From Candidatus Poribacteria bacterium (GTDB taxonomy: Bacteria > Poribacteria > WGA-4E > WGA-3G): DNA of 64,000 bases. Shown piece by piece: positions 2,382-14,957 of this stretch. Every line of letters starts with the position of its first letter. Positions within the stretch are counted from its first letter, which is position 1. The position numbers and the translations under genes are program-made. Location of the stretch: the NCBI GenBank assembly GCA_965208635.1, contig OZ242349.1:4925696-4989695 (forward strand), given 5' to 3'. The notes below the pieces were generated by a model that saw only the letters and a list, made by a program, of their open reading frames with translations, was not told the DNA's origin and ran no database searches.

Positions 2382-3350
2382 TTAAAAATACGGAACTCCC
2401 TGTGCTTCCACATAAACCGCGTAGAGAGACTGGCTACCCATCATAAACAGTCGATTCCTTTTCACACCACCGAAGCAGAGGTTTGCACAAATTTCTGGGA
2501 GATGAATTTGCCCGATACGTGTTCCGTCTGGTGCGAAAACATGTACCCCATCGTATCCATCGCCAGCCCAGCCAGCACTCGCCCACAGGTTTCCATCGAC
2601 ATCACACCGAATACCGTCAGCAATACCGGGCGATGTATCACAGAACACCTCCTGCTTGCCCAACCTCTCGCCATTTATTACGTCATAGACGAAGAGATGC
2701 CGCGGTGTTCCCTCTTTATGCGTAATCCCCGTATCCACGAGATAGAGTTTCTCATAATCGGGCGAAAAACAGATACCGTTCGGTTTCTCGAGTTCATCCG
2801 TTGCAATGGTCGCTTCTCCAGTATCGGGATTCAGGCGATACACGCAGGTCGGCAATTCAAATTCAGCGACATGGCCTTCATAGTTGAGCATAATCCCGTA
2901 TCCGGGATCGGTAAACCAGACATGCCCATCGGGATGGACGGCGACATCGTTCGGTGCGTTGAGCGGTTTTCCATCAAAGCTGTCCATCAGCACGGTAATC
3001 GTTCCATCGTATTCGGTTCGCGTGACACGCCGTGCGCCATGTTCACAACTGACGAGCCGTCCTTGTCGATCGCGGGTATGCCCATTGGTATAGTTCGAGG
3101 GTTTGCGATAGACGCTCACATCGCCGGTGGATTCCTCCCATTTCAGAATCCGGTTGTTCGGAATATCGCTCCAGAGCAGATAGCCGCCGTCGCCGAACCA
3201 AGCAGGTCCCTCTGCCCAACGCGAACCTGTCCATAACCGTTCGACGACAGAATTACCGATTGTATATTTCCCGAAACGGGGGTCTAATGCCTCAATTGCC
3301 GGATCTGGATAGCGGACAATTGAATCATCCCATTTTCTTTCTGTACGCAT
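2382..3350 (-). CDS. SMP-30/gluconolactonase/LRE-like beta-propeller hydrolase
   Basis: Overall SGL-family pattern (GEGPAW, repeated D..G.LY/W blades). The ORF track starts at a TTG at 3392; I prefer the ATG at 3348-3350 (MRTERKW), which has a GGAG 6 nt upstream on the coding strand. Confidence 0.55.
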   Translation of the reverse strand: MRTERKWDDSIVRYPDPAIEALDPRFGKYTIGNSVVERLWTGSRWAEGPAWFGDGGYLLWSDIPNNRILKWEESTGDVSVYRKPSNYTNGHTRDRQGRLVSCEHGARRVTRTEYDGTITVLMDSFDGKPLNAPNDVAVHPDGHVWFTDPGYGIMLNYEGHVAEFELPTCVYRLNPDTGEATIATDELEKPNGICFSPDYEKLYLVDTGITHKEGTPRHLFVYDVINGERLGKQEVFCDTSPGIADGIRCDVDGNLWASAGWAGDGYDGVHVFAPDGTRIGQIHLPEICANLCFGGVKRNRLFMMGSQSLYAVYVEAQGVPYF

Positions 3351-3444
3351 GCAAAACTCCTTACAAATAGCATTGCAAACAGTATACCACAAATTGAGAA
3401 GTTCTACACAGAAAATCTCAGGGGTAATCTTTGTTTTCCCAAGT

Positions 3445-3472
3445 CCGGTAGGTGCGGTTTCCCAACCGCACC
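3445..3472. repeat. REP-like hairpin CCGGTAGGTGCGGTT-loop-AACCGCACC (family copy 1 of 4)
   Basis: 9-bp perfect stem. The same element occurs at 6865-6891, 17445-17472 and 24494-24521. It sits in a divergent intergenic region, so it is not acting as a terminator here. Confidence 0.5.
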
Positions 3473-3574
3473 TTTTCGCTTTTCTTTTTTATACGCGCAT
3501 GATACAATTACTTTGAATGAACACAATACTATGGCTTTCGTAGAAATCAAGTTATACTACAAATAAAGATATCT

Positions 3575-6500
3575 ATGTTAAATAAAAACACATCCCTAAA
3601 ATCTGGTATCCGAGATAACCTCCTACGTGAAACAGTCCACGATTTTCTACAACAAGAAATTAAGAACGGTTCCGCACTCTCCATCGTCTCCGCCTACTTC
3701 ACCATTTATGCCTACGAAAAGATGCAACACTCCCTGGATAAAATAGAGGAACTCCGTTTTCTTTTTGGGGACCCTGATTTTGTCAAACGTATGGATCCGA
3801 ATAACACAGATACAAAAGCGTTTGATATGACGGATACAGGTCTACAACTCAACCAGCAACTCCGACAGAAACCGATTGCCAAAGCGTGTGCCGAATGGAT
3901 AAACGAGAAGGTAGAAATCCGTACGACCCGCGAATCTAATCTGATACACGGGAAAATGTACCACATCACCAATAACGGCGTTGACAAAGCAATTCTGGGT
4001 AGCTCCAACTTTACGGTGCGCGGACTCGGACTCAGTTCAAATAACAGCAACATTGAACTGAATCTTGAAGTGGATAGCGACCGAGACCGAACCGACCTCA
4101 AGGCGTGGTTTGATGAACTCTGGAATAACGATCAACTCGTTGAAGATGTGAAAAATAAAGTCCTCGCAAAACTGAAGCAGATAGGGCAAGATCACCCACC
4201 AGAACTCGTCTATTACAAAACCCTATACGAACTTTTCCGTGAAGAAATTGAGACCCGACAGACAAACGAACAGACCCTTGAGGATATACATCTATACGAC
4301 ACAAAAATTTGGGGCAAGTTATACGATTTTCAAAAAGAGGGCGCGAAAAGTGTTATTGCTCGGCTGCTGCGACACAACGGTTGTATTTTGGCGGATAGCG
4401 TCGGATTAGGAAAAACATACACTGCACTCGCCGTCATCAAGTTTTTTGAATTGCGAAACGAACGTGTCCTTGTTCTCTGCCCGAAAAAACTCCGCGAAAA
4501 TTGGGCACGCTACCCGGCACATAACTCACAAGCATCCAATGAGTTCCTCGATGATAAGTTCGGATACACCTTACTCTCGCACACCGACCTATCCAGATAC
4601 AGTGGTGATTCTGGCGGTGTCAATCTATCAGATTTCAATTGGCAGAATTTTGACCTGATTGTTATTGACGAATCCCACAACTTCCGAAATGACACCAAAC
4701 CCCGTGAGGACAAAGATGGCAGCTTCCGTCATAGCCGTTATTCCCGCCTATTAGAGGAGGTCATCAAAGAAGGCACAAAAACCAAAGTGTTGATGCTCTC
4801 CGCGACGCCCGTGAATACTTCACTCACTGACCTCCGCAATCAGATATATCTCATGACAGAAAAACGTGAGGATGTCTTTAGAAACAGTTTGGGGGTTAGC
4901 AATATCCGCACTTTAATACGACAGGCGCAAAAAGCCTTCAAGACGTGGGAAGAGAACACCACCAGAGATGGCACAAGAGATAAAACAGAATTATTTAATA
5001 CGTTAGGGGTAGAATTTTTTCAACTCCTCGGCGGCGTTTCTATTGCGCGTTCCCGAAGGCATATCATAAAATACTATGCCGAAGAAATAAAAAAAATTGG
5101 TGAATTCCCTACACAACTCGATCCAGTCAATTGCCATCCACCTACCGATCTGTCAGGCGAACTTTCATATAAAGTGTTGGCGGATCAGATTGGTGATTTC
5201 GAGTTGTCCATCTATAGACCCTCCAGTTACGTTGTAGATGAAACAGCAAAACAGCGGTTAGCAGATGAAAAACAGAAATTCCGTTTCAATCAGGAGGATC
5301 GTGAGAAATTCCTTATCGGTATGATGCAGACCAATTTCCTCAAACGGCTGGAAAGTTCTGCTTACTCCCTTTCCAAAACGCTTGAACGCACCATCAACAA
5401 ACACGATGAAATGCTGGAGAAGATTGACCGCTTCCAGAAAAACCAAAATATAGCAGACGCAGGCGCCGATGTCCTTCCCGATGATGATGAAGACGATGAG
5501 GAATTTTTAATCAATCGTGCCAGAAATCCCTACCATCTAAAAGAATTGGATTGCACCCGCTGGAAACAGGACATCAACCAAGATAAACAGACATTAACCG
5601 CTGTGTTGGAAAAAGTGAAATCCATCACATCAGAACGGGATGGAAAACTGAAAGAGATTAAAAAACACATCCGAGATAAGGTGCTAAATGCAACAAAAGA
5701 TAAGGACGGAAACCCCAATCGCAAACTGCTCATCTTTACCACCTTCAAGGATACGGCAGAATATCTCTATGATCACTTGTCTGAACTCATATCGGAATTA
5801 GGGCTGAATATGGCACTCGTTTCTGGAGATATGACGCGAACGACCTGCGGAGAAAATAAATTCAACGATATTCTTACGAACTTTGCCCCCCGCGCAAGAG
5901 GACGTTCTGAGGACATCAGCGACAACATAGACCTGATGATTGCGACAGACTGTATCTCAGAAGGGCAAAACCTTCAGGACTGCGATACCGTTCTAAACTA
6001 CGATATACACTGGAATCCCGTCCGTATTATTCAACGGTTCGGGCGGATTGATAGGATCGGTAGCAATAATGTCTCAGTCAAGATGATTAACTATTGGCCC
6101 ACAGAAGATATGGAGGTCTATCTCCGTCTACGAAATCGCGTTGAATCCCGAATGGCACTCGCCGATGCCACCGCAAGTGGTGATGACGACCCGTTGAATG
6201 AATGGGCTTACGAACAGGCACAGATGGAACTCAACTTCCGGGACAAGCAGTTGGAGCGGCTCCGCGAAGAGGTACTCGATCTGGATGACCTCTCTGACGG
6301 TGTAGTAATGAGCGACTTTACATTAGATTATTTCTTTGCGCAACTCCTGAAGTATCTCGAAAGAAACAGAGCAAAACTTGAGGCAACATCAGACGGTGCT
6401 TATGCCGTTACCAATAACGAAAACAATCCCTCGGAAAACGGTGTCATCTTCTTTCTCCAACAGACCAACGCCAGCACAAATAAACAGGAAAAAACCGCCA

Positions 6501-6853
6501 GTCCCATCCACCCTTACTACGCCGTTTACATCCGAGACAGTGGGGATATCCGTTACGGGTGTATCAATGCGAAACAGGTGTTGGATCTATTTGAGACATC
6601 TGCCGTTGGGAAAGAGGACGCAATAGATGATTTATGTCTCTGGTTTGACCAAGAGACGGAATACGGCGATAACATGACACATTACAACAAACTTTTAGAC
6701 GCCGTCATTTCGCATATCACACGGTCACATACGAAGACACAAAGCCAAATTTTGAAGAGTGGGAGTCCTCGCGACGCAAAACTGACACCCGCATCCAAAG
6801 CCCCTAAAGACACTGGCGATTTCAAGTTGGTGACATGGCTGATTATCACATGA
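3575..6853 (+). CDS. Fused PLD-family nuclease domain (single HKD motif) plus SNF2-family DEAH-box helicase
   Basis: HGKMYHITNNGVDKAILGSSNFT (HxK...GSxN PLD signature) near residue 125. Helicase motifs: I DSVGLGKT, II DESH, III LSATP, C-terminal helicase domain with QRFGRIDRIG (motif VI). 1092 aa, ATG start. Confidence 0.8.
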   Translation: MLNKNTSLKSGIRDNLLRETVHDFLQQEIKNGSALSIVSAYFTIYAYEKMQHSLDKIEELRFLFGDPDFVKRMDPNNTDTKAFDMTDTGLQLNQQLRQKPIAKACAEWINEKVEIRTTRESNLIHGKMYHITNNGVDKAILGSSNFTVRGLGLSSNNSNIELNLEVDSDRDRTDLKAWFDELWNNDQLVEDVKNKVLAKLKQIGQDHPPELVYYKTLYELFREEIETRQTNEQTLEDIHLYDTKIWGKLYDFQKEGAKSVIARLLRHNGCILADSVGLGKTYTALAVIKFFELRNERVLVLCPKKLRENWARYPAHNSQASNEFLDDKFGYTLLSHTDLSRYSGDSGGVNLSDFNWQNFDLIVIDESHNFRNDTKPREDKDGSFRHSRYSRLLEEVIKEGTKTKVLMLSATPVNTSLTDLRNQIYLMTEKREDVFRNSLGVSNIRTLIRQAQKAFKTWEENTTRDGTRDKTELFNTLGVEFFQLLGGVSIARSRRHIIKYYAEEIKKIGEFPTQLDPVNCHPPTDLSGELSYKVLADQIGDFELSIYRPSSYVVDETAKQRLADEKQKFRFNQEDREKFLIGMMQTNFLKRLESSAYSLSKTLERTINKHDEMLEKIDRFQKNQNIADAGADVLPDDDEDDEEFLINRARNPYHLKELDCTRWKQDINQDKQTLTAVLEKVKSITSERDGKLKEIKKHIRDKVLNATKDKDGNPNRKLLIFTTFKDTAEYLYDHLSELISELGLNMALVSGDMTRTTCGENKFNDILTNFAPRARGRSEDISDNIDLMIATDCISEGQNLQDCDTVLNYDIHWNPVRIIQRFGRIDRIGSNNVSVKMINYWPTEDMEVYLRLRNRVESRMALADATASGDDDPLNEWAYEQAQMELNFRDKQLERLREEVLDLDDLSDGVVMSDFTLDYFFAQLLKYLERNRAKLEATSDGAYAVTNNENNPSENGVIFFLQQTNASTNKQEKTASPIHPYYAVYIRDSGDIRYGCINAKQVLDLFETSAVGKEDAIDDLCLWFDQETEYGDNMTHYNKLLDAVISHITRSHTKTQSQILKSGSPRDAKLTPASKAPKDTGDFKLVTWLIIT

Positions 6854-6864
6854 TTAACCCGTCC

Positions 6865-6891
6865 CCGGTAGGTGCGGTTTTTAACCGCACT
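6865..6891. repeat. REP-like hairpin, copy 2 (GGTGCGGTT ttt AACCGCAC), 12 nt after the helicase stop
   Basis: Read directly; it may also act as a transcript 3' stem-loop, but there is no T-tract. Confidence 0.5.
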
Positions 6892-6928
6892 ATAGGTGTC
6901 AATTTAAGAAAAATTGCATCATGGCATC

Positions 6929-7169
6929 GTAGGTTGGGTTGAACGGGGAATACCAGAGTCCAGTGAATTGAAAGAAACAGTACGCCTTCTCTATACACCT
7001 TCCATTTCAGAGATATGGAGTGAAACCCAACGTCTTTGCGGTTCCCGAAACGCTGCGGGTATGAAGTTGGGTTTCACTCTGTTCTTGGGTATATCCGAGG
7101 CTGTGTTGGATTTCAGGGATATTTGGAACATCGGCATCTGCCTTCTAAGTTCCGTTCAACCCAACCTAC
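6929..7169. mobile_element. MITE-like element (~241 bp) with terminal inverted repeats GTAGGTTGGGTTGAACG / CGTTCAACCCAACCTAC and an internal inverted pair GTGAAACCCAACG / GTTGGGTTTCAC; copy 1 of 2
   Basis: Perfect 16-17 bp terminal inverted repeats; a homologous copy sits at 14726-14957 with shared internal blocks. It lies between the helicase and methyltransferase genes and has no coding potential (ORF 6914..7177 is spurious). Confidence 0.55.
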
Positions 7170-7261
7170 AGTACTAAATTGACACCTATGGTGCAGAAAA
7201 TAATAACATCGGGCGGATAAAGCCCTCCAAAAAGAGGAGTCTGTTATAGGAACACAAAATT

Positions 7262-10200
7262 ATGAACAAAGAAGCAATCAAAGCCGCACTATCCGCAATA
7301 CCGACCGGTGACTTTTTAGAAAAGTCAAAAGACCTGCTCGGCACAATAGGCTACCGCAGTGAACTCACCCTTGAACTTTCCGGCACCGTCCACGACTTTT
7401 TTGACGAATTTCCACCACTCAACCCGAACACCAAAACCGAACAGGAATTCCGAAAACACGCTGAATCCGTGCAACTCGTGTTCCAATTCACAAGCGACGA
7501 AATCGCTGATGATCCACAGGGAACACTTTTTGAATCCGCTTCCTTCGACAAAGGAAACATAAAAAGTTTCCTGTTCTGTGCAGTCGAGCTAAAAGACAAC
7601 AACTATTCCCGCACCAAATACGCCGAGTTCACACGAGAAATCAACAAACGTCTGTTCGCACCCACTGTGATTTTATTTCGCGCCGGTAATCATCTGACAG
7701 TTGCATTTGCCGATCGCCGCCCAGACAAAACCGACGAGGACCGCGATGTGCTCGGACAGGTTACCCTCATCAAAGACATCCGTCTCCACAACCCACACCG
7801 CGCACATTTGGACATCCTCTCTGAACTCTCACTTGAAGCGTGCGTCAAGTGGATAGATGAAAAACAAAAACCGAAAAACTTCGACGGTCTACTGGGGGCA
7901 TGGCTCGCCAAACTGGACACCGAAGAACTCAACAAACAGTTCTATCGAAAGCTGTTCGCGTGGTACGAATGGGCAAGAAAAGAAGCAACGTTCCCGACAG
8001 ACGAAAACCGAATCATAGAACCGGAGGAGCATGTAATACGCCTCATCACACGTCTACTCTTCATCTGGTTTATTAAAGAAAAAGGGTTGGTGGCAGATGC
8101 GTTATTCAACAAATCGCAAATCCAAGACCTACTGGCAGAAGACGATTTTGATACCGGAGATTCCTACTATCGCGCCGTGCTACAGAACCTCTTTTTCGCC
8201 ACATTGAACACCGAAATAGACAAACGTAAGTTTAGCACCGTTGGCTACGCCACAAATCGTGATTTCTCGCGTTACCGCTATAAAGCTCAGATGCCTGACC
8301 CCGATAAACTCTTAGAACTGTTTGACCAAACCCCCTTCATCAACGGTGGATTGTTCGATTGTCTGGATAGTTGGGAAGCGACGGGTCAAGAGAGTTACCG
8401 AATCGACTGCTTTTCTGATAATCAGTACCATAAGTTGTCCATCCCCAACCGTCTCTTTTTTCATATAGAGCAAGGATTGATTCCGTTACTTGAGCATTAC
8501 AAATTCACCGTCGAGGAGAACACACCGATAGAGCAAGAGGTGGCATTGGACCCAGAACTACTCGGCAGAGTCTTTGAAAACCTACTTGCTGCCTACAACC
8601 CGGAAACCGGTGCGACGGTGCGAAAACAGACCGGATCCTACTACACCCCACGTGCTATCGTCGATTATATGGTGGAAGAAGCATTGGTCGCCACGTTATC
8701 CCAAAAATGCGATCCAACCGATGGCGACGCGCAACTCTGGAACGAACGGCTACGCTATCTTCTCGACTATGCCCAAGCCTTTGATGATGCCAACGAATGG
8801 TTCGATGATGCTGAAAAAGATGCCGTTGTCCGAGTAATTTCCGAACTCAAGATATTGGATCCCGCAGTGGGTTCCGGTGCATTTCCTATGGGGATGTTGC
8901 ACAAATTAACCCTCGCATTACGCCGACTTGACCCAGACAACACCCGCTGGGAAAAGTTACAGAAGGAACGCGCGCTCCAACGAGCAGAAATAGCGTTTGA
9001 TACACAAGACGACCCAACGCGGCGTGAAGAACTCATCGAAATCGACGAGACTTTCAAACGCTATCGAGACTCAGACTTCGGACGAAAGTTGTATCTCATC
9101 CAAAATAGTATTTTCGGCATAGACATCCAACCCGTGGCGTGCCAGATCGCCAAACTCCGCTTTTTCATATCCCTTGCCATTGAGCAGGAACCCGAGCAGG
9201 ATACACAGAACTTCGGCATCAAACCGTTGCCAAACTTGGAGACGCGCTTTATCGCGGCAAACACACTGATAGGACTCACAGCACAACGGATGCTGACAAG
9301 TAACACCGCGCGAGATTTGGAACGCGAACTGGGTGACAATCGCGAGCGGCATTTTCATGCGACCACCCGTCAACGCAAACGTGAATATCAGCGAAAGGAC
9401 GAGCAACTGCGATCCGAATTGGCAGCGGAGCTAAAAAGCATGGGCACCCCAGCAGATGATGCCGAAAAAATTGCAAAATGGGATCCGTATGACCAGAATG
9501 CCACCGCCGATTGGTTTGATCCTGAATGGATGTTCGGAGTCATAGATGGATTTGATGTGGTGATTGGCAATCCACCCTACATTAGTCATGATAAAATCCC
9601 AAAACAACTTAAAGCCCAAATCAAGAATCATTACCAATCATACGAGCCATTTGCAGACGTATACTGTTATTTTATTGAAAAAACCTTAGAACTACAGAGT
9701 AAGAGGAGCATTCTTAGTTTCATTACCTCAAATTCGTATTTAAGAGCAGAATATGGAGCACCAACCCGCCGCCTATTGCTAAGTAAAAACATACTACTTA
9801 GAATGTTAAATATTGAGGACTCACAGGTCTTCGAGAGTGCAATTGTTAACGTCGCGATAATTGTGTCTCGTACACCGACCAATTCCACTGATGATTCCTG
9901 CCTTGTTGTTAATTCCCCATTTTCAGGTAATAGTTTCGCCGATTTTGTGAAAATCAATGGCTTTAACTATCCTCAATCATACTTTAACTCAAAGTCATGG
10001 AATCTCGCAGAACCGCAGCTGATTGAACTTCAAAAGAAACTGGAATTATCAGGAAAAACTCTTAAAGAGTTTCAGACGAAAATTAGACTTGGTATTGCTA
10101 CTGGTAGCAACGAAGCTTTTCTCATAAATGAAGATCAAAAACGGGAATTTTATGAGAAAAATCCTGTCAATGCTGAAATCATAAAACCTATTTTGAGGGG

Positions 10201-10813
10201 ACGGGACATTTCACGCTACAGTTACAACCTACCCGGGCAGTATATTCTACTCACCAAAAATGGAGTTAATGTAGAAAGAGATTACCCTGATATACATGAA
10301 CATCTAAAGTCGTTCGGGGATAAGTTCAGAAATCGTGGAGCACAGGGACAACATTGGACTAATTTAAGAGCTTGTTCATTCTATGACGACTTCAAAAAGG
10401 AAAAAATCGTGTGGATCGAATTGTCAGATTTGGGACGATTCGCACTTTGTAATGAGGAAATCTATCTACTCAACTCGGCGTACTTTTTATTACCACCTTT
10501 GGGTATAGACTCAAAATTCCTTCTTGGCATCCTAAATTCAAGCACAATTCGCTTTTACCTGAATCTTGTCGCAGAAACAAGCGGAATGGGAACAAGCCGT
10601 TGGATCAACAATTATGTGAAAGAATTCCCAATACCAATAGTTGCTTATGAACAACAAACTGAAATCATTGAACACGTCGATCAACTTCTTGCGATCAAGC
10701 GCGCTGACTCGGATGCGGACACTTCCAATCTTGAAAATGAGATTGACAAACTGGTATACGCCTTATACGACCTAACCGACGATGAGATTGCGATTGTGGA
10801 GGGAAAAGAATGA
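7262..10813 (+). CDS. Gamma-class N6-adenine DNA methyltransferase, large Type IIG / PglX-like architecture with a possible N-terminal PD-(D/E)xK region and a C-terminal target-recognition region
   Basis: Motif I LDPAVGSGAFPMGML near residue 531, then motif IV VIGNPPYISHD near residue 769. The I-then-IV order defines the gamma class. About 530 aa precede motif I, with a possible D-x12-ELK (SFDKG...AVELK). A 414-aa C-terminal region is markedly AT-rich. 1183 aa. Confidence 0.8.
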   Translation: MNKEAIKAALSAIPTGDFLEKSKDLLGTIGYRSELTLELSGTVHDFFDEFPPLNPNTKTEQEFRKHAESVQLVFQFTSDEIADDPQGTLFESASFDKGNIKSFLFCAVELKDNNYSRTKYAEFTREINKRLFAPTVILFRAGNHLTVAFADRRPDKTDEDRDVLGQVTLIKDIRLHNPHRAHLDILSELSLEACVKWIDEKQKPKNFDGLLGAWLAKLDTEELNKQFYRKLFAWYEWARKEATFPTDENRIIEPEEHVIRLITRLLFIWFIKEKGLVADALFNKSQIQDLLAEDDFDTGDSYYRAVLQNLFFATLNTEIDKRKFSTVGYATNRDFSRYRYKAQMPDPDKLLELFDQTPFINGGLFDCLDSWEATGQESYRIDCFSDNQYHKLSIPNRLFFHIEQGLIPLLEHYKFTVEENTPIEQEVALDPELLGRVFENLLAAYNPETGATVRKQTGSYYTPRAIVDYMVEEALVATLSQKCDPTDGDAQLWNERLRYLLDYAQAFDDANEWFDDAEKDAVVRVISELKILDPAVGSGAFPMGMLHKLTLALRRLDPDNTRWEKLQKERALQRAEIAFDTQDDPTRREELIEIDETFKRYRDSDFGRKLYLIQNSIFGIDIQPVACQIAKLRFFISLAIEQEPEQDTQNFGIKPLPNLETRFIAANTLIGLTAQRMLTSNTARDLERELGDNRERHFHATTRQRKREYQRKDEQLRSELAAELKSMGTPADDAEKIAKWDPYDQNATADWFDPEWMFGVIDGFDVVIGNPPYISHDKIPKQLKAQIKNHYQSYEPFADVYCYFIEKTLELQSKRSILSFITSNSYLRAEYGAPTRRLLLSKNILLRMLNIEDSQVFESAIVNVAIIVSRTPTNSTDDSCLVVNSPFSGNSFADFVKINGFNYPQSYFNSKSWNLAEPQLIELQKKLELSGKTLKEFQTKIRLGIATGSNEAFLINEDQKREFYEKNPVNAEIIKPILRGRDISRYSYNLPGQYILLTKNGVNVERDYPDIHEHLKSFGDKFRNRGAQGQHWTNLRACSFYDDFKKEKIVWIELSDLGRFALCNEEIYLLNSAYFLLPPLGIDSKFLLGILNSSTIRFYLNLVAETSGMGTSRWINNYVKEFPIPIVAYEQQTEIIEHVDQLLAIKRADSDADTSNLENEIDKLVYALYDLTDDEIAIVEGKE

Positions 10814-11235
10814 ATACAGGACTAAAGATTTTCATTACCTATGCCCATAAAAATTCAGAAGCAAAGGACGAATTGATAACCAGCCTTGCCGTCCTGAAGC
10901 AAAACGGATTAATAGATGTCTGGCACGACAACGAAATTCTACCTGGAGACAAATGGCGAGATGAAATTTTCAACAACCTTGCTGATTCGGACATTCTACT
11001 CTACCTTACCTGTCGGTATAGTCTTGCCTCTGAAAATTGCAATAAAGAATTAACTGCTGCGTTAAATCCAAATATAAGAGTGATTCCGATTATCCTTGAA
11101 CATTGCGATTGGCTAAATCACCAACTTAGCGATTTTCAAGCTCTACCGGATAAAGGTAAACCTATTAACGAGTGGCAACCTGAGAGCAAAGGGTGGTTAA
11201 ATGTACTGCCATCGGAAATTTGGACCACTCTCTAA
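10810..11235 (+). CDS. TIR-domain protein, start overlapping the methyltransferase stop (ATGA); 3' end replaced by IS-derived sequence
   Basis: IFITYAHKNSEAKDEL (TIR box 1, F-I/V-S/T-Y/H...D). ...DSDILLYLTCRYSLASENCNKELTAAL matches the S-x-W/N-C-x-x-E-L motif that carries the catalytic Glu of TIR NADases. The last 10 codons (VLPSEIWTTL*) come from the IS left end starting at 11202, so the native C-terminus is lost. Confidence 0.6.
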   Translation: MNTGLKIFITYAHKNSEAKDELITSLAVLKQNGLIDVWHDNEILPGDKWRDEIFNNLADSDILLYLTCRYSLASENCNKELTAALNPNIRVIPIILEHCDWLNHQLSDFQALPDKGKPINEWQPESKGWLNVLPSEIWTTL

Positions 11236-11360
11236 ACCAAGATTGTGATACAATAACAATCTATTTGAAAGGAGCATTCCGATGGCGAAACGCAGAAGAT
11301 TTACCCCCGAATTTAAAGCAGAAGTTGTGCTGGAGGCACTTCGCGGTGAAACTTCCCAAG
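11202..11360 (+). mobile_element. Partial (left-end, 159 bp) copy of the same IS3-family element in inverted orientation relative to the full copy; contains IRL and the first 26 codons of orfA
   Basis: Perfect reverse-complement identity of 11202-11360 to 12363-12521. Confidence 0.7.
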
Positions 11361-12170
11361 AGGTGTCAGATACCCTAACGCCGAATGCAGGCGTTTGAGA
11401 TTATACACCTGTGTGATAAAATGACCGATGCTTTGTCGAGCCTCGGTAATATCTTGATAATCATTGAGGTGGACTTCTTCTTCCTTGAGCGTTCGGATCA
11501 ATCTTTCAGCGTATCCATTCTCCCAAGGACACCCGCGGCGAGCTACCGAAATCTCAACACCGTATGCTTGGAGTGTTGCGATATACGCCTTTGAAAGATA
11601 CTGCACGCCTTGATCGGAATGATGAATCTCCGGAATCCTGTCGTGTAAAGCTTGCTCTAAGGGTTTCAAAGTCAGAGTTTGCGTCAAGTCTTGACTGAGG
11701 TTCCATCCTCGAATCATACGTGTGAAGACATCCATGAGCAGCGCGACATAGATGAAGCGTCTGTTGAGGCGGACGTAGGTGATATCGCCGACCCAGACTT
11801 GATCCTGTCGGGAGATCTCAAGCGTCTGTATTCTATTGACCCACGGGTGTGAACCTTCAAGGGACCTCGTGGTTTGACAGACCCGTTTCACCGAGACCGA
11901 GAGGTTATCTTCTTTCATCAACCGAGCGACGCGTCGATACCCAACAGGGTGTCCTTGATTCACCAACAGTTTGGTGATACGTCGATACCCGTAGGTGGGA
12001 TACCGGGCAGCTAACTGCTGTATGTCTGATCGCAGGACTTCTTCAGACGGGTCGCTTTTGGGGTGATAATAGAGCGTGCTCTTGTTGAAACCCAGCACCT
12101 CGCAAATCAGTCGAACCGAATACCTCGTCCGCAACTCCTCAACGATGCGTCGCTGTTGAGACGGGGTCAA
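11313..12170 (-). CDS. IS3-family transposase OrfB (DDE integrase domain); the reading frame runs about 48 nt past the inferred IS end into the inverted partial copy
   Basis: WVGDITYV...HSDQGVQY...NGYAE catalytic-triad context; C-terminal LHSALGYLTP. Confidence 0.75.
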   Translation of the reverse strand: MTPSQQRRIVEELRTRYSVRLICEVLGFNKSTLYYHPKSDPSEEVLRSDIQQLAARYPTYGYRRITKLLVNQGHPVGYRRVARLMKEDNLSVSVKRVCQTTRSLEGSHPWVNRIQTLEISRQDQVWVGDITYVRLNRRFIYVALLMDVFTRMIRGWNLSQDLTQTLTLKPLEQALHDRIPEIHHSDQGVQYLSKAYIATLQAYGVEISVARRGCPWENGYAERLIRTLKEEEVHLNDYQDITEARQSIGHFITQVYNLKRLHSALGYLTPLGKFHREVPPAQLLL

Positions 12171-12521
12171 TCCAACAATGTCGATGCTTTTTTTTGAATC
12201 TCCATCGCCAGGGTCAACCGTCCAACGAGTTGCTCAAGTTGAGCCACCCGTTCTACGGACTCGCTCGACTGCTTATCCGTAGCGTCAAAGAGCGTCGCTA
12301 TATTTTCAACGACTTGCTGCTTCCACTTTGAGACTTGGTCTGCACTTAGATTATGGTGCCGACACAATTCCGCTTGGGAAGTTTCACCGCGAAGTGCCTC
12401 CAGCACAACTTCTGCTTTAAATTCGGGGGTAAATCTTCTGCGTTTCGCCATCGGAATGCTCCTTTCAAATAGATTGTTATTGTATCACAATCTTGGTTTA
12501 GAGAGTGGTCCAAATTTCCGA
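11364..12521 (-). mobile_element. IS3-family insertion sequence (orfA plus orfB with an A8G -1 frameshift site), about 1.16 kb; left terminus TGTACTGCCATCGG... at 12521
   Basis: OrfA is an HTH/leucine-zipper protein (MAKRRRFTPEFKAEVV...). OrfB is a DDE transposase ending with the ...HSALGYLTP motif typical of IS3 OrfB. Slippery AAAAAAAAG lies at the orfA/orfB overlap (+ strand 12186-12196 TTTTTTTT). The right boundary is inferred from where the inverted duplicate ends and is uncertain by a few nt. Confidence 0.75.
12167..12451 (-). CDS. IS3-family transposase OrfA (HTH DNA-binding)
   Basis: 94 aa, MAKRRRFTPEFKAEVVLEAL... typical IS3 OrfA; overlaps orfB at the A8G slippery site. Confidence 0.8.
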   Translation of the reverse strand: MAKRRRFTPEFKAEVVLEALRGETSQAELCRHHNLSADQVSKWKQQVVENIATLFDATDKQSSESVERVAQLEQLVGRLTLAMEIQKKASTLLD

Positions 12522-12938
12522 TGGCAGTACACGGATTGATCGTTGTTGTCAAGTGAAAAACCGCCAAGTCGGGTGACAAGACGGTTTTCTTGACAATCCG
12601 TATACTTTGATGTTATCAAAGCATCAGCGGCGGATGCGTCGCGGATCGCTCACCTTGAGCAGCTCGTTGGGTGTCTAACAGTCGCCTTAGACATTGAAAA
12701 AAAAGCCGCGAAGTGGTTGAACTAACGGCATCAAAGAAACGAGAAATGGTGGAAAAAGTGCACTTAGTAAGTGGCTTACTTCTTTTTAAACTCTCATACT
12801 ATCCTTGATAAACTTGGCAAACATATCTCTACTCCGATAGTTATATTTATAGCACGCTTCAGCGAGATATAGAGGCGTGTATCCTGTTGAGTAGTGGTGG
12901 TGTGAACCATACCATGCCCGTTTGACGAAAGACCTATC

Positions 12939-12980
12939 TAAAAACCGCGAAACCTCCTATCGGTCTCGCGGTTTTTTATT
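12939..12980. terminator. Hairpin AAAACCGCGA-loop-TCGCGGTTTTTT (intrinsic-terminator-like, possibly bidirectional) in a 0.9 kb ORF-free region
   Basis: 10-bp stem including a GC core, followed by a T6 tract and preceded by an A-tract; no intact gene upstream. Confidence 0.3.
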
Positions 12981-13447
12981 GCCTACAAACAGCCAAAGTG
13001 TTAGAATGCATAAAAAGAGCTAAAGTAGAAATAACGTGAAACCAAAATTAACCATCCCCCAATCTACTAACTGCGAAATGTTATATTAGATTTAACCAAT
13101 CCCAAAACGACTTATTGCGAAAGATTATATCAAATCTCCTCGAAATCCGCAAAACCGTGTTATAGCACAAAAAAGCGTCTTCATTCGGCCTCCACAAGGT
13201 TTTCTTGAACAAAAACAATACACCGTCATTGATATTCCCGGATCGCTCAAAGAACCCATATTAGACCACCTGCAAAAACAACACGGCATCTCAACGCGAG
13301 ACGTCTACAACGATCTCCATGGATTTATTAGAGACCAGAGCAGCCACCAGAAAACCGCTATAGAAATTTATCAAGCCGAAATGGAGTTGATCGAAAATAC
13401 TTTGAAAACTTGATACACTCAATACCAAACAGAACGGAGGCATAAAC

Positions 13448-14251
13448 ATGAAGACCGAAGTTGTCCAGGATCCTAACGAAAACGCCATCCAACGTTTTAC
13501 CAAACTCATTATGGAAAGACCAAGTTTTGCCACGCCCTATAACTATAGAGGCATCGCGTATGGCAATATCGGCGAAATTGACCGCGCCATTGAAGACTTT
13601 AACACGGCAATTAGACGCAAGGACAACTATGCCGAAGCCTATAGCAACCGTGGCAGCGCATACCGTATCAAAGGGGATTACGATCGCGCCATCACAGATT
13701 GTAACACAGCGATAAAATTGGATCCTGATTTGCCAGAGGCATATAACAACCGTGGGATCGTTTATAAACTCAAGGGTGAGACAGATCGCGCCATTGAAGA
13801 CTATAACACAGCCATAACGCTCGATCCGAACTTTGCTTATGGCTATTACAATCGCGGTATTGTCTACCACGAAAGAGACGAGTTTGATCATGCCATCAAA
13901 GACTACACCAAAGCAATAGAACTGAGGCCAAATCTTGTCCATCCTTACAACCATCGTGGTAACGCTTATTCCCAACAAGGGAAATATAAACTTGCTATCA
14001 AGGACTATAACGAGGCGATACAACGCAAGCCGGATTTAGCAAAGCCATACTACAATCGCGGTATGGTGTTTGTACGCTTGCAAGAATGGGAAAAAGCCAA
14101 AGAAAATCTTACGACTGCCAGAGACAAGCAGGAAAATATTATCCCTGAACAGTTTCGCAAAGAATACGAAAACGTTGCCGATTTTGAGCAGAAATATGAG
14201 ATTAAACTACCGGAAGACATTGCCGCACTGCTAACTCCCTCGCAGGCATAG
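13448..14251 (+). CDS. TPR-repeat protein (about seven regular 34-aa repeats)
   Basis: Repeating AYNNRGIAY..G..D.AI.D.N.AI.L.P pattern; GGAGG RBS 6 nt upstream of the ATG. Confidence 0.7.
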   Translation: MKTEVVQDPNENAIQRFTKLIMERPSFATPYNYRGIAYGNIGEIDRAIEDFNTAIRRKDNYAEAYSNRGSAYRIKGDYDRAITDCNTAIKLDPDLPEAYNNRGIVYKLKGETDRAIEDYNTAITLDPNFAYGYYNRGIVYHERDEFDHAIKDYTKAIELRPNLVHPYNHRGNAYSQQGKYKLAIKDYNEAIQRKPDLAKPYYNRGMVFVRLQEWEKAKENLTTARDKQENIIPEQFRKEYENVADFEQKYEIKLPEDIAALLTPSQA

Positions 14252-14725
14252 CAGTAAAGTGATGTATCGCCGGTTTGCAAAATGTTGCACTTTCCGCCAA
14301 ATTATTTTTTTCGCACAGAAAAATCGAATAAAAAAACGCGCCTAAACCCACACACGCATTGGATTCTCAGACAATTTTAGCAAGTTATCCAAAATACAAA
14401 AAAAGTTACCAAATCGTAACTTTTTAGCAAATGAGTTAAAAATAAATTAACGTATGTTATCCATAAAGACTCATTGAAAACCGAGTCTGAAGTTTCAGAG
14501 TAAGCATTTCAGAAATCGCCTATCAAAACCACTCGAAACCCAGTCAGGGTCTATATTCACAACCTTTTTAAAATCCACCCTTCTTTAAATTTTACTCTGA
14601 ATACTCTGAAACTCGCCACATTTTCTTATCCCTATGTCTGAGCCGTGTCTCTGGGATCGCGATCCTATTGACTGCTAACTACTGAATGCTTCTGAAGGGT
14701 GTGTAAATATTTTGTCAAAATCCTG

Positions 14726-14957
14726 TAGGTTGGGTTGAACGAGGCCTGATTGAAGACCTCATAGCGGCGATGATTCTCAAACGCACAAAGCACCTGAACG
14801 CACCAGAATACAAGTGAAACCCAACGCCTTTTCACACCAGCACCGTTTGGGACGTTGGGTTTTGCTATCTCTATTTACACAGAACAGGTCATTGAAATAG
14901 CGGAGTTGCCGGGGGTAAACTCCAGTGTCTTGGTTTTTACCGCTCAACCCAACCTAC
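14726..14957. mobile_element. MITE-like element, copy 2 (same inverted termini as 6929-7169)
   Basis: GTAGGTTGGGTTGAACG ... GCTCAACCCAACCTAC; internal GTGAAACCCAACGCC / CGTTGGGTTTTGC blocks shared with copy 1. ORF 14855..15193 inside it is spurious. Confidence 0.55.

What the first reader, a model, noticed from the sequence alone, without database searches (positions are those of the whole stretch)
3575..11235. Candidate previously undescribed defence module: PLD-nuclease/SNF2 helicase + Type IIG/PglX-like N6A methyltransferase + TIR-domain protein
Seen in sequence: three co-oriented genes in a lower-GC block. Gene 1 fuses an HxK...GSSNFT PLD nuclease motif to a complete SNF2 DEAH helicase. 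Gene 2 is a 1183-aa gamma-class adenine methyltransferase (motif I LDPAVGSGAFP, motif IV NPPY) with a long N-terminal region and a C-terminal specificity-like region. Gene 3 starts on gene 2's stop (ATGA) and has TIR box 1 (FITYAH) and the S-x-N-C-x-x-E-L catalytic-Glu motif. Established knowledge: TIR domains in Thoeris, TIR-STING and Pycsar-like systems are NAD+-depleting effectors. A PLD nuclease, an SNF2 helicase and a large adenine methyltransferase are components of class 1 DISARM (DrmC/DrmD/DrmMI), and PglX-like methyltransferases are the BREX modifier. The DISARM hallmarks DrmA/DrmB and the BREX hallmarks BrxC/PglZ are absent; the flanking genes are a gluconolactonase and an IS. Inference: a compact RM-like or epigenetic-discrimination module, with a possible PD-ExK region inside the methyltransferase and the PLD on the helicase, wired to a TIR abortive-infection effector. 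I cannot name a described system with this trio.
Basis: partly seen in the sequence, partly recalled or inferred. Interest (0 to 1): 0.85.

Follow-up and report, generated by a model that had tools for sequence, protein, structure and literature searches.

The report
Helicase-nuclease plus methyltransferase restriction module
A sponge-symbiont (Poribacteria-like) genome carries a widespread but uncharacterised two-gene restriction-like module, a motor nuclease plus a DNA adenine methyltransferase, and the TIR gene beside it is the transposon-truncated stump of one of many interchangeable defence genes found at that position.

Summary
All three ORFs and the quoted motifs are present. Genes 1 and 2 form a real conserved pair. 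In 73 of 80 genome loci from more than 12 phyla, a homologous methyltransferase directly follows the HKD(PLD)-SNF2 helicase.

The helicase matches PADLOC's candidate family "HKD+Snf2" (C3a139) over its full length.

The methyltransferase has no conserved PD-ExK nuclease. Its N-terminus is a DUF4391-like domain. On E. coli CFT073, Acinetobacter, Leuconostoc and archaeal replicons, DUF4391 is a separate gene between the same helicase family and a Type III mod/res pair.

DISARM, BREX and MANTIS hallmark genes are absent.

Gene 3 is not intact. An IS3-family element cuts it at codon 133 of a TIR-TPR gene, and a decayed FRG-TPR gene follows. TIR-TPR or FRG-TPR genes recur after this methyltransferase only in sponge-associated Poribacteria and Latescibacterota. 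Other phyla carry ABC ATPases, DUF1016 nucleases, GmrSD, a reverse transcriptase or a KAP NTPase in or beside the pair.

Verdict: this is a new variant of helicase-nuclease/methyltransferase restriction-like systems, with a degraded accessory effector. An obligate three-part system is not supported. Interest is moderate.

The parts
3575..6853 (+). Gene 1: HKD(PLD) nuclease fused to an SNF2-family helicase, 1092 aa. Predicted motor-nuclease (restriction) subunit.
   Evidence: Pfam hits. PADLOC PDLC01075 'C3a139 HKD+Snf2' at 2.5e-109 over aa 25-1057. Catalytic and helicase motifs are at least 90% conserved in 82 homologues.
3851..4123 (+). Single HKD/PLD nuclease domain of gene 1 (aa 93-183; H125-x-K127 ... 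G142-S-S-N-F-T).
   Evidence: PLDc_2 at 4.4e-9 and RE_NgoFVII at 6.4e-7. H125, K127 and N145 are invariant.
4316..6061 (+). SNF2/SF2 ATPase core of gene 1: motif I GLGKT, motif II DESH, Helicase_C lobe.
   Evidence: ResIII, SNF2-rel_dom and Helicase_C hits. The closest PDB sequences are Snf2, CHD1L and RapA.
6929..7169 (.). MITE-like insertion in the helicase-methyltransferase spacer, with 18-nt perfect terminal inverted repeats. A second copy lies at 14725-14957.
   Evidence: The spacer is 408 bp here against 212 bp in the syntenic locus L003.
7262..10813 (+). Gene 2: 1183-aa N6-adenine methyltransferase. Its order of domains is DUF4391-like domain, MmeI-like helical spacer, gamma-class methyltransferase, TaqI_C specificity domain.
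7439..7921 (+). DUF4391-like N-terminal alpha/beta domain of gene 2 (about aa 60-220), proposed here to couple it to the helicase.
8552..9871 (+). Methyltransferase catalytic region of gene 2 (motif I LDPAVGSGAFP; NPPY at aa 770-773).
   Evidence: N6_Mtase, Eco57I and MmeI_Mtase hits. PDB sequence matches to M.BseCI and CamA.
10184..10633 (+). TaqI_C-type target-recognition domain of gene 2. This is the variable part of the gene among relatives.
   Evidence: TaqI_C at 1.2e-17. Window nt about 9580-10700 fails to align with most relatives, while the last ~90 nt are conserved.
10810..11235 (+). Gene 3: truncated TIR gene. TIR homology runs over aa 1-133 (nt 10810-11208). The last 8 codons and the stop come from the IS end. 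The original gene was a TIR-TPR protein.
   Evidence: TIR_2 at 7e-17. PADLOC ThsB-like at 3.7e-25. Homologues of 210-245 aa or longer carry TPR repeats and cover only 94% of the query. tblastn. AF2/Foldseek gives a TIR fold. The same truncated allele occurs on a TARA scaffold.
11205..12531 (-). IS3-family element (orfA 12451-12167, orfB 12170-11313) that interrupts the TIR-TPR gene. It has abnormal 162-nt inverted arms.
   Evidence: Pfam HTH_Tnp_1 and rve. Inverted repeat 11202-11363 / 12370-12531 at 99%.
13129..14251 (+). Remnant of a second accessory gene (FRG-TPR). The linker piece is 13129-13377 and the TPR ORF is 13448-14251. The FRG domain is missing.
   Evidence: 53% identity to aa 161-243 of the L006 FRG-TPR protein and 75% to the L003 267-aa TPR protein. 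TPR Pfam hits. The FRG domain matches PADLOC candidate PDC-S15.

Best explanation
The core is a two-gene, ATP-dependent restriction-modification-like module.

Gene 2 methylates adenine (N6) at a sequence read by its C-terminal TaqI_C specificity domain, and this marks host DNA as self. On unmodified DNA the same protein recruits gene 1. I infer that recruitment goes through the N-terminal DUF4391-like domain. Gene 1's SNF2 motor translocates along double-stranded DNA. Its single HKD motif must pair with a second copy to form one PLD active site, so cleavage probably needs two motor subunits to dimerise or converge. This resembles dimeric MtsD of MANTIS, and the site-to-site communication of Type ISP and Type III enzymes.

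The methyltransferase has no nuclease of its own. The module is therefore a split 'Mod-like plus Res-like' system built from an Eco57I/MmeI-class methyltransferase and an HKD-SNF2 motor nuclease.

The 3' flank of the methyltransferase gene, and in some loci the spacer between the two core genes, holds interchangeable accessory defence genes. In sponge symbionts the genes after the methyltransferase are effector-TPR proteins (TIR-TPR or FRG-TPR). They probably act as independent or back-up abortive-infection effectors: a TPR sensor with a TIR NADase. In this window both accessory genes have been wrecked by IS activity, so only the helicase-methyltransferase pair looks functional.

Shown: gene linkage, domain content, motif conservation, TIR truncation, variability of the third gene.
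Inferred: methylation-guided restriction, the coupling role of DUF4391, NADase activity.
For: - Pair linkage: a methyltransferase homologue (N-terminal region included) lies directly downstream of the helicase, co-oriented, in 73 of 80 helicase-anchored genome loci. These span Poribacteria, Latescibacterota, Binatia, Chloroflexota, Cyanobacteriota, Verrucomicrobiota, Planctomycetota, Pseudomonadota, Bacteroidota, Cloacimonadota and others.
- The helicase is a full-length member of PADLOC HKD+Snf2. Its HKD, Walker A, DESH and motif VI residues are conserved.
- Gene 2 has intact motif I, NPPY and a TaqI_C domain. Its specificity region is the variable part among relatives, as expected for a specificity subunit.
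- No nuclease in gene 2: E109 and K111 are not conserved.
- DUF4391 link: 19 of 22 N-termini hit PF14335. Stand-alone DUF4391 sits between the same helicase family (37% identity, full length) and a Type III mod gene on plasmids of E. coli, Acinetobacter, Leuconostoc and Methanomethylovorans, and in the E. coli CFT073 tRNA-Leu island.
- Mechanistic precedent: MANTIS MtsD is a dimeric PLD-SF2 helicase-nuclease directed by a methyltransferase (bioRxiv 10.64898/2026.09.23.753747).
- Accessory genes in or beside the pair: SLFN/HATPase_c_4 proteins, DUF1016/YhcG nucleases, ABC-3C-type ATPases, OLD nuclease, GmrSD, RVT, KAP NTPase, DUF3644 (PDC-S19), FRG (PDC-S15) and TIR.
- TIR truncation and FRG-TPR decay.
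Against: - No experiment or methylome links this family to restriction.
- The DUF4391 assignment is sub-threshold (best 26 bits against a 29.9 cut-off; hhalign probability 2%).
- For the Type III cassette with an extra helicase-like gene, Murray et al. found that gene unnecessary for methylation and absent from the active Eco86II preparation (PMC8259958). If it belongs to this family (not tested), the helicase family could have a role other than primary restriction.
- A 4-bp stop/start overlap of TIR-TPR with the methyltransferase in four divergent loci (window, L001, L004, L053) hints at closer coupling than mere neighbourhood.
- A MITE now separates the two core genes here, and expression is untested.
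Confidence: 0.62

Rival explanations
1. Integrated three-component system. The helicase-methyltransferase complex senses unmodified invading DNA and activates the TIR(-TPR) protein, which depletes NAD+ and aborts infection.
For: - TIR-TPR starts on the methyltransferase stop codon in the window, L001, L004 and L053.
- TIR-TPR follows this methyltransferase family in at least 9 non-identical loci from two phyla.
- In L001 the methyltransferase-TIR-TPR pair persists without an adjacent helicase.
- Some TIR-TPR proteins end in a TaqI_C-like domain related to the methyltransferase specificity domain.
- The catalytic Glu is conserved.
Against: - Only 5 of the 80 helicase-anchored loci carry a TIR gene, all in sponge-symbiont taxa.
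- In other loci unrelated genes follow the methyltransferase or sit between the two core genes.
- The syntenic relative L003 lacks it.
- L053 carries a 92%-identical TIR next to a core that is only 47-50% identical, so the accessory gene moves on its own.
- TIR-TPR also occurs without the pair (L002, L087, L090, L091).
- Here the gene is truncated while the core is intact.
Confidence: 0.15
2. The pair works without DNA cleavage, as a BREX- or DISARM-like epigenetic exclusion system. Alternatively the helicase is an auxiliary or back-up effector for a methyltransferase-centred system rather than the primary restriction subunit.
For: - The methyltransferase gives partial hits to PglX and DrmMI models, and the helicase to DrmD and BrxH models.
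- In Type III cassettes with an extra helicase-like gene, possibly of this family, that gene was dispensable for Eco86II methylation and cleavage (PMC8259958).
- BR and BREX systems recruit auxiliary nucleases (PMC12839542).
Against: - The HKD catalytic residues are strictly conserved.
- In the two-gene form no other nuclease is present.
- All BREX and DISARM hallmark genes are absent, and scores are far below NCBIfam cut-offs.
Confidence: 0.12
3. The TIR-TPR and FRG-TPR genes are eukaryote-like host-interaction proteins of sponge symbionts. They sit next to the RM-like module by chance or by hitch-hiking on a mobile island.
For: - They are restricted to sponge-associated Poribacteria and Latescibacterota.
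- Sponge symbionts are enriched in TPR-type eukaryote-like proteins and in defence systems (PMC11706023).
- L002 shows the same TIR-TPR next to TPR-trypsin and caspase-like genes.
Against: - No signal peptide is evident at the N-terminus (sequence).
- The TIR is closest to the Thoeris ThsB model.
- FRG and other genes found at this position are PADLOC defence candidates.
- Operon-like overlap with the methyltransferase.
- TIR-TPR-TaqI_C variants pair with ABC-3C-type ATPases.
Confidence: 0.08
4. Gene 2 is an ordinary solitary Type IIG restriction-modification enzyme, and the helicase is an unrelated neighbour.
For: PADLOC REase_MTase_IIG models hit at 1e-107. Eco57I, MmeI_Mtase and TaqI_C domains are present.
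Against: - The helicase is adjacent in 73 of 80 loci across phyla.
- The N-terminal region lacks conserved nuclease residues and is DUF4391-like instead.
- The best-scoring stretch of each top Type IIG model hit lies in the methyltransferase/specificity region (aa 608-1182).
Confidence: 0.03

Closest known systems
MANTIS (= Gao_RL = Type-2 DUF499-centred BREX-related system; MtsABCD)
   Same: A PLD/HKD nuclease sits at the N-terminus of an SF2 helicase-like ATPase and serves as effector. It is paired with an N6-adenine methyltransferase that supplies sequence recognition. The logic is restriction-like, and one PLD site forms by dimerisation.
   Different: No DUF499 AAA+ ATPase (MtsA) and no DUF3780/DUF3870 co-regulator (MtsB) lie within about 10 kb. 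The helicase scores 158 bits against the 1100-bit cut-off of NCBIfam NF042964, a PLD-domain anti-phage protein model whose link to MtsD I did not verify. It belongs instead to PADLOC C3a139. The methyltransferase is an Eco57I/MmeI-class enzyme with a DUF4391-like N-terminus.
HKD-SNF2 + DUF4391 + Type III Mod + Type III Res cassette (E. coli CFT073 and IncF plasmids, Acinetobacter NEB149, Leuconostoc, Methanomethylovorans). Possibly the 'additional helicase-like ATPase' of Eco86II/BspHIV in Murray et al. 2021.
   Same: Same helicase family (37% identity over the full length; same PADLOC model at 1.7e-121). The DUF4391 module lies immediately after the helicase and before the methyltransferase.
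   Different: There DUF4391 is a separate 186-272 aa protein, the methyltransferase is a Type III Mod, and a complete Res nuclease is present. Here the DUF4391-like domain is fused to a gamma-class methyltransferase and no Res exists. Identity with the published Eco86II helicase was not tested.
Type ISP (LlaGI/LlaBIII) and Type III restriction enzymes
   Same: An ATP-driven SF2 motor plus nuclease is coupled to a methyltransferase and specificity domain that reads an asymmetric site. Cleavage after long-range communication is the likely working analogy.
   Different: Type ISP is one polypeptide with an Mrr/PD-ExK nuclease. Type III uses a beta-class Mod and a Res with a C-terminal PD-ExK. Here the nuclease is HKD, the motor is SNF2-like, and the two halves are separate genes.
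Class 1 DISARM (DrmA, DrmB, DrmC, DrmD, DrmMI)
   Same: It contains an SNF2 helicase, a PLD nuclease and a large adenine methyltransferase.
   Different: DrmA and DrmB (DUF1998) are absent. PLD and SNF2 are fused here. DrmD models match only the C-terminal helicase lobe (145 bits against a 610-bit cut-off).
Thoeris ThsB and other bacterial TIR effectors (SPARTA TIR-APAZ, AbTir)
   Same: TIR_2 fold and a conserved catalytic-type Glu (E80). The best PADLOC hit is ThsB, and the best structural hits are SPARTA, plant and SARM1 TIR domains.
   Different: No ThsA, Argonaute, STING or CD-NTase partner is present. The native architecture is TIR-TPR, sometimes TIR-TPR-TaqI_C followed by an ABC ATPase. 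The copy in this window is truncated.

Membership tests
PADLOC candidate family C3a139 'HKD+Snf2' | Full-length match to model PDLC01075 (HKD nuclease fused to an Snf2 helicase) | tested here: met
   E 2.5e-109, aa 25-1057 against profile positions 15-925 of 948.
MANTIS / Gao_RL / BR type 2 | DUF499 AAA+ ATPase (MtsA) in the operon | tested here: not met
   No such domain in any ORF within about 10 kb on either side. It is also absent from the gene lists of the related loci L003 and L004.
MANTIS / Gao_RL / BR type 2 | Small DUF3780/DUF3870 protein (MtsB) | tested here: not met
   The only ORF between the genes (6914-7177) lies in a MITE and has no Pfam or PADLOC hit.
MANTIS / Gao_RL / BR type 2 | HKD-SF2 helicase-nuclease equivalent to MtsD | tested here: inconclusive
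   Same architecture. NCBIfam NF042964 gives 158 bits against a 1100-bit cut-off, and I assumed rather than verified that this model represents MtsD. PADLOC PLD_Helicase and HmaA match only the C-terminal lobe.
Class 1 DISARM | DrmA helicase and DrmB (DUF1998) | tested here: not met
   Neither is encoded in the neighbourhood. DrmD models give partial hits only.
BREX | BrxC ATPase and PglZ phosphatase, plus a PglX equivalog | tested here: not met
   Both are absent from the neighbourhood. The PglX NCBIfam model gives 100 bits against a 500-bit cut-off.
Type IIG restriction-modification enzyme | Nuclease domain (PD-ExK or similar) in the same polypeptide as the methyltransferase and specificity domain | tested here: not met
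Gamma-class N6-adenine DNA methyltransferase (Eco57I/MmeI class) | Motif I (xDPxxGSGxF), motif IV NPPY, C-terminal TaqI_C specificity domain | tested here: met
   Pfam Eco57I 120.6 bits and TaqI_C 64.6 bits. The motifs are present and conserved.
DUF4391 (PF14335) | Score above the Pfam gathering threshold (29.9 bits) | tested here: inconclusive
   The window scores 18 bits and the best homologue 26 bits. Even so, 19 of 22 diverse members hit it at E<=0.01 on the same profile region. hhalign gives E 0.025.
TIR domain NADase effectors | TIR fold and a catalytic Glu in the alpha-C region | tested here: met
   TIR_2 scores 62.4 bits against a 28-bit cut-off. E80 is invariant. Foldseek top hits are TIR domains, from a low-confidence model (pLDDT 62).
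TIR domain NADase effectors | NAD+ cleavage activity | not testable with these tools
   This needs an enzymatic assay. The copy here also lacks its TPR part.
Thoeris | ThsA (SIR2 or Macro plus SLOG) partner gene next to ThsB | tested here: not met
   No such gene is among the neighbours.

The most novel reading that the evidence does not exclude
DUF4391 is a portable adaptor that plugs one family of HKD-SNF2 motor nucleases into unrelated DNA methyltransferases. It is fused to an Eco57I/MmeI-class enzyme here and is free-standing next to Type III Mod/Res in E. coli CFT073 and on many plasmids. If so, this defines an unrecognised, widespread class of ATP-dependent restriction system, of which the two-gene form in this window is the minimal version. 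In sponge symbionts the same module has additionally captured TIR-TPR(-TaqI_C) effectors at a conserved junction in the last ~90 nt of the methyltransferase gene. This gives a restriction layer and an NAD+-depleting abortive layer in one operon.
Probability: 0.3. Interest if true: 0.65.

Novelty: new variant of a known kind. Interest (0 to 1): 0.45.

Why it matters
- Methyltransferase-guided helicase-nuclease systems (Type I/III/ISP, DISARM, BREX-related/MANTIS) are a major and still expanding class of prokaryotic immunity. This family would be a minimal two-protein version that needs no loader ATPase.
- It could explain the unexplained extra helicase-like gene reported next to Type III systems in hundreds of genomes, and it may be the same family as the helicase in uropathogenic E. 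coli CFT073.
- It gives DUF4391 a testable role.
- The variable position after the methyltransferase gene is a practical place to find new accessory effectors (TIR-TPR, FRG-TPR, TIR-TPR-TaqI_C with an ABC ATPase).
- For this particular window the result is sobering. The eye-catching TIR is a dead remnant, so the locus is a poor template for experiments on a three-part system.

Tried and rejected
- TPR ORF 13448-14251 as the displaced 3' half of the TIR-TPR gene: rejected. It has its own RBS and ATG, is orthologous (75%) to a 267-aa TPR ORF in the TIR-less locus L003, and the stretch before it matches the linker of FRG-TPR proteins.
- Shared specificity between the methyltransferase specificity domain and the TaqI_C domain of TIR-TPR-TaqI_C proteins: rejected. 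Identity to the cognate domain is 27%, against 47% between the accessory proteins.
- Stand-alone DUF4391 genes in the 80 genome loci: none found with an HMM built from four plasmid DUF4391 proteins.
- Profile-profile proof of DUF4391 homology: inconclusive with only four template sequences.
- Foldseek against AFDB50: not available.
- Literature searches for DUF4391, for HKD/SNF2/TIR combinations and for Poribacteria TIR found no description of this pair or trio. Makarova 2011 was not held.
- Promoter and terminator scan of 3300-11400: nothing above chance.
- Identity of the Eco86II 'extra helicase' with this family could not be established. No NCTC86 record was among the E. coli matches listed (57 of the 87 matching records were not shown).

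Full report
**1. What is in the sequence**

The three co-oriented ORFs exist as described: 3575-6853 (1092 aa), 7262-10813 (1183 aa) and 10810-11235 (141 aa). The methyltransferase stop overlaps the TIR start in ATGA.

- Gene 1 carries PLDc_2/RE_NgoFVII (aa 93-183), SNF2-rel_dom/ResIII (248-415) and Helicase_C (711-829). Motif II reads DESH, not DEAH.
- Gene 2 carries N6_Mtase, Eco57I, MmeI_Mtase and TaqI_C, with LDPAVGSGAFP and NPPY.
- Gene 3 is a TIR_2 domain (62 bits). Its best PADLOC hit is a ThsB-like model.
- The GC dip is modest and is strongest over the specificity domain and the TIR gene.
- The neighbours are housekeeping genes: PIG-L, PurS, a methyltransferase and SGL upstream; GFO_IDH, AP_endonuc_2 and a pectate lyase downstream.
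- Close homologues are annotated Candidatus Poribacteria. A relative has the same flanking genes (L003).

**2. Genes 1 and 2 are a conserved pair**

A scan of one genome per species with a helicase alignment returned 80 loci from more than a dozen phyla.

- In 73 of them a homologue of gene 2, including its N-terminal region, lies directly downstream on the same strand.
- In two it lies upstream within 10 kb.
- Four contigs end less than 1 kb after the helicase, and one (L061) shows no homologue in the 1.7 kb available.

The helicase is a full-length match (2.5e-109) to PADLOC model C3a139 'HKD+Snf2'. It gives only partial hits to DrmD, BrxH, HmaA, ZacC and DpdE. NCBIfam scores are far below every curated cut-off. 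Across 82 family members the HKD residues (HGK...GSSNFT) and helicase motifs I, II, III, V and VI are at least 90% conserved. Both activities are therefore probably live.

**3. The methyltransferase is not a self-contained Type IIG enzyme**

The conserved residues are arginines and a PHRAH motif.

Pfam's DUF4391 model is the only family that hits aa ~60-220 repeatedly. It does so in 19 of 22 diverse homologues at E<=0.01 (best 1e-6), always below the gathering score. Residues 260-368 match the MmeI helical spacer.

The order of domains is therefore DUF4391-like domain, helical spacer, gamma-class methyltransferase, TaqI_C specificity domain.

**4. The DUF4391 link has genomic support**

Full-length homologues of the helicase (37% identity, same PADLOC model at 1.7e-121) occur on 123 plasmids and in 87 of 5426 complete E. 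coli genomes.

In E. coli IncF plasmids, the CFT073 tRNA-Leu island, Acinetobacter sp. NEB149, Leuconostoc kimchii and Methanomethylovorans, the helicase is followed by a separate DUF4391 gene and then by a Type III mod and res pair.

Murray et al. 2021 (PMC8259958) reported an unexplained, tightly linked helicase-like ATPase 5' of mod/res in more than 500 genomes. It was not needed for Eco86II methylation or cleavage. I could not test whether it is the same family.

A profile-profile comparison of the methyltransferase N-terminus with four stand-alone DUF4391 proteins was weak (E 0.025). I treat the homology as likely but unproven.

**5. Gene 3 is a truncated remnant**

Homologues of the TIR ORF cover only 94% of it. 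Many of them are TIR-TPR fusions of 210-245 aa, and the copies in the related loci reach 434-1283 aa.

- Homology ends at nt 11208. From 11205 the sequence is the end of an IS3-family element spanning 11205-12531, with odd 162-nt inverted arms.
- The same truncated allele and junction occur on an independent TARA scaffold.
- After IS debris, 13129-13377 matches the linker of FRG-TPR proteins. The ORF 13448-14251 is the TPR part of that second gene, 75% identical to the TPR ORF of L003.
- The TIR domain itself looks competent. E80 is invariant among 43 homologues, and a low-confidence AF2 model (pLDDT 62) hits SPARTA, plant and SARM1 TIR domains.

**6. Is the trio a system?**

Only partly.

- TIR-TPR follows this methyltransferase family in L001, L004, L005, L011, L023, L053, the L085/L086/L133/L136 group and L134. 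It also lies downstream of a methyltransferase homologue in L021. All are Poribacteria, Latescibacterota or sponge-type metagenomes.
- In four divergent loci the TIR start overlaps the methyltransferase stop.
- In the same lineages, FRG-TPR occupies the position in L005, L006, L069 and L073.
- The syntenic locus L003 has no TIR. L002, L087, L090 and L091 have the TIR-TPR family without the pair.
- More distant TIR relatives (below 50% identity) from other environments are never next to the pair.
- L053 carries a 92%-identical TIR beside a core that is only 47-50% identical. High identity begins in the conserved last ~90 nt of the methyltransferase gene, so the accessory gene is exchanged on its own.

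Outside sponge symbionts, the position after the methyltransferase, or the spacer between the two core genes, holds other defence-type genes:

- SLFN_AlbA_2/HATPase_c_4 proteins (11 ORFs in 9 loci)
- DUF1016/YhcG nucleases (7 loci)
- ABC ATPases of the ABC-3C type (7 loci)
- an OLD nuclease
- GmrSD-like proteins
- a reverse transcriptase
- a KAP NTPase
- DUF3644 (PADLOC PDC-S19)

The simplest reading is a conserved two-gene core with a hot spot for interchangeable accessory or back-up effectors. This matches what has been proposed for BREX-related systems (PMC12839542).

**7. Mechanism**

By analogy with MANTIS/Gao_RL, the methyltransferase provides sequence recognition and self-marking, and a dimeric PLD-SF2 helicase-nuclease (MtsD) restricts unmodified DNA (bioRxiv 10.64898/2026.09.23.753747). 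Type ISP and Type III enzymes offer a similar analogy.

I propose that gene 2 methylates its target and, on unmodified sites, recruits gene 1 through the DUF4391-like domain. The SNF2 motor then translocates, and two HKD domains pair to cut. The system lacks the DUF499 ATPase and the small co-regulator that define MANTIS. It also lacks all DISARM and BREX hallmarks. It is therefore not a member of those families, although it probably works in a similar way.

In intact loci TIR-TPR would be a sensor-effector that depletes NAD+. Here it is disabled.

**8. Verdict**

The interesting object is the helicase-methyltransferase pair and its DUF4391 connection, which is widespread and uncharacterised but already flagged as a candidate. 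The TIR in this window is a broken accessory gene.

- Novelty: new variant of a known kind.
- Interest: 0.45.

Noticed in passing
window 11202-12531: The IS3-family element has 162-nt, 99% complementary inverted arms. Its 3' end (including the last codons of orfB) is replaced by an inverted copy of its own 5' end and orfA start. This is either a rearranged IS or a head-to-head partial duplication. The junction with the TIR gene is confirmed in an independent TARA scaffold (L145).
   Followed up: partly
window 6929-7169 and 14725-14957: Two copies of a ~240-bp MITE-like element with 18-nt terminal inverted repeats (GTAGGTTGGGTTGAACGG). One sits between the helicase and methyltransferase genes, the other just after the TPR remnant. 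None are expected by chance.
   Followed up: partly
window 3445-3473, 6865-6890, 17446-: A REP-like hairpin (CCGGTAGGTGCGGTTT..AACCGCAC) is repeated three times at gene ends, including directly after the helicase stop codon.
   Followed up: no
window 12532-13128: The stretch between the IS and the FRG-TPR remnant includes what looks by eye like the 3' end of another transposase orfA. This suggests an IS-mediated deletion that removed the TPR part of the TIR gene and the FRG domain of the next gene.
   Followed up: no
L005 19698-22676; L090 9971-13822; L091 9989-12388; L004 18775-22893: TIR-TPR-TaqI_C fusion proteins (and a TPR-TaqI_C protein in L004) carry a C-terminal module related to methyltransferase specificity domains. 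Each is followed, with overlapping stop and start, by an ABC-type ATPase (SMC_N/AAA_15), which is a pseudogene in L005. That ATPase is 25-31% identical to the one that directly follows the methyltransferase in six non-sponge loci. This may be a separate TIR-effector/ABC-ATPase system.
   Followed up: partly
L148 (E. coli CFT073 chromosome 5116943-5127508); L143, L144, L146, L147: A conserved cassette of HTH regulator, HKD-SNF2 helicase, DUF4391, Type III Mod and Type III Res sits in the CFT073 tRNA-Leu defence island and on plasmids of four distant taxa, including an archaeon. PADLOC has no model for the DUF4391 protein.
   Followed up: partly
L008 21252-21998 (- strand); L017 19686-21216: Extra, partly inverted copies of the methyltransferase specificity-domain region lie downstream of the methyltransferase gene. 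This suggests invertible (phase-variable) specificity cassettes in some members.
   Followed up: no
L002 1-10702: A close TIR-TPR homologue (89% in the TIR domain) sits in a different island, downstream of a Type ISP restriction enzyme and a caspase-like (Peptidase_C14)/FGE-sulfatase protein and next to several TPR-trypsin genes.
   Followed up: no
hit list (homologues of gene 2): All of the 120 listed database homologues of the methyltransferase N-terminus are 285-751 aa rather than about 1200 aa. This points to frequent frameshifts, truncations or assembly errors in this gene in sponge metagenome assemblies.
   Followed up: no
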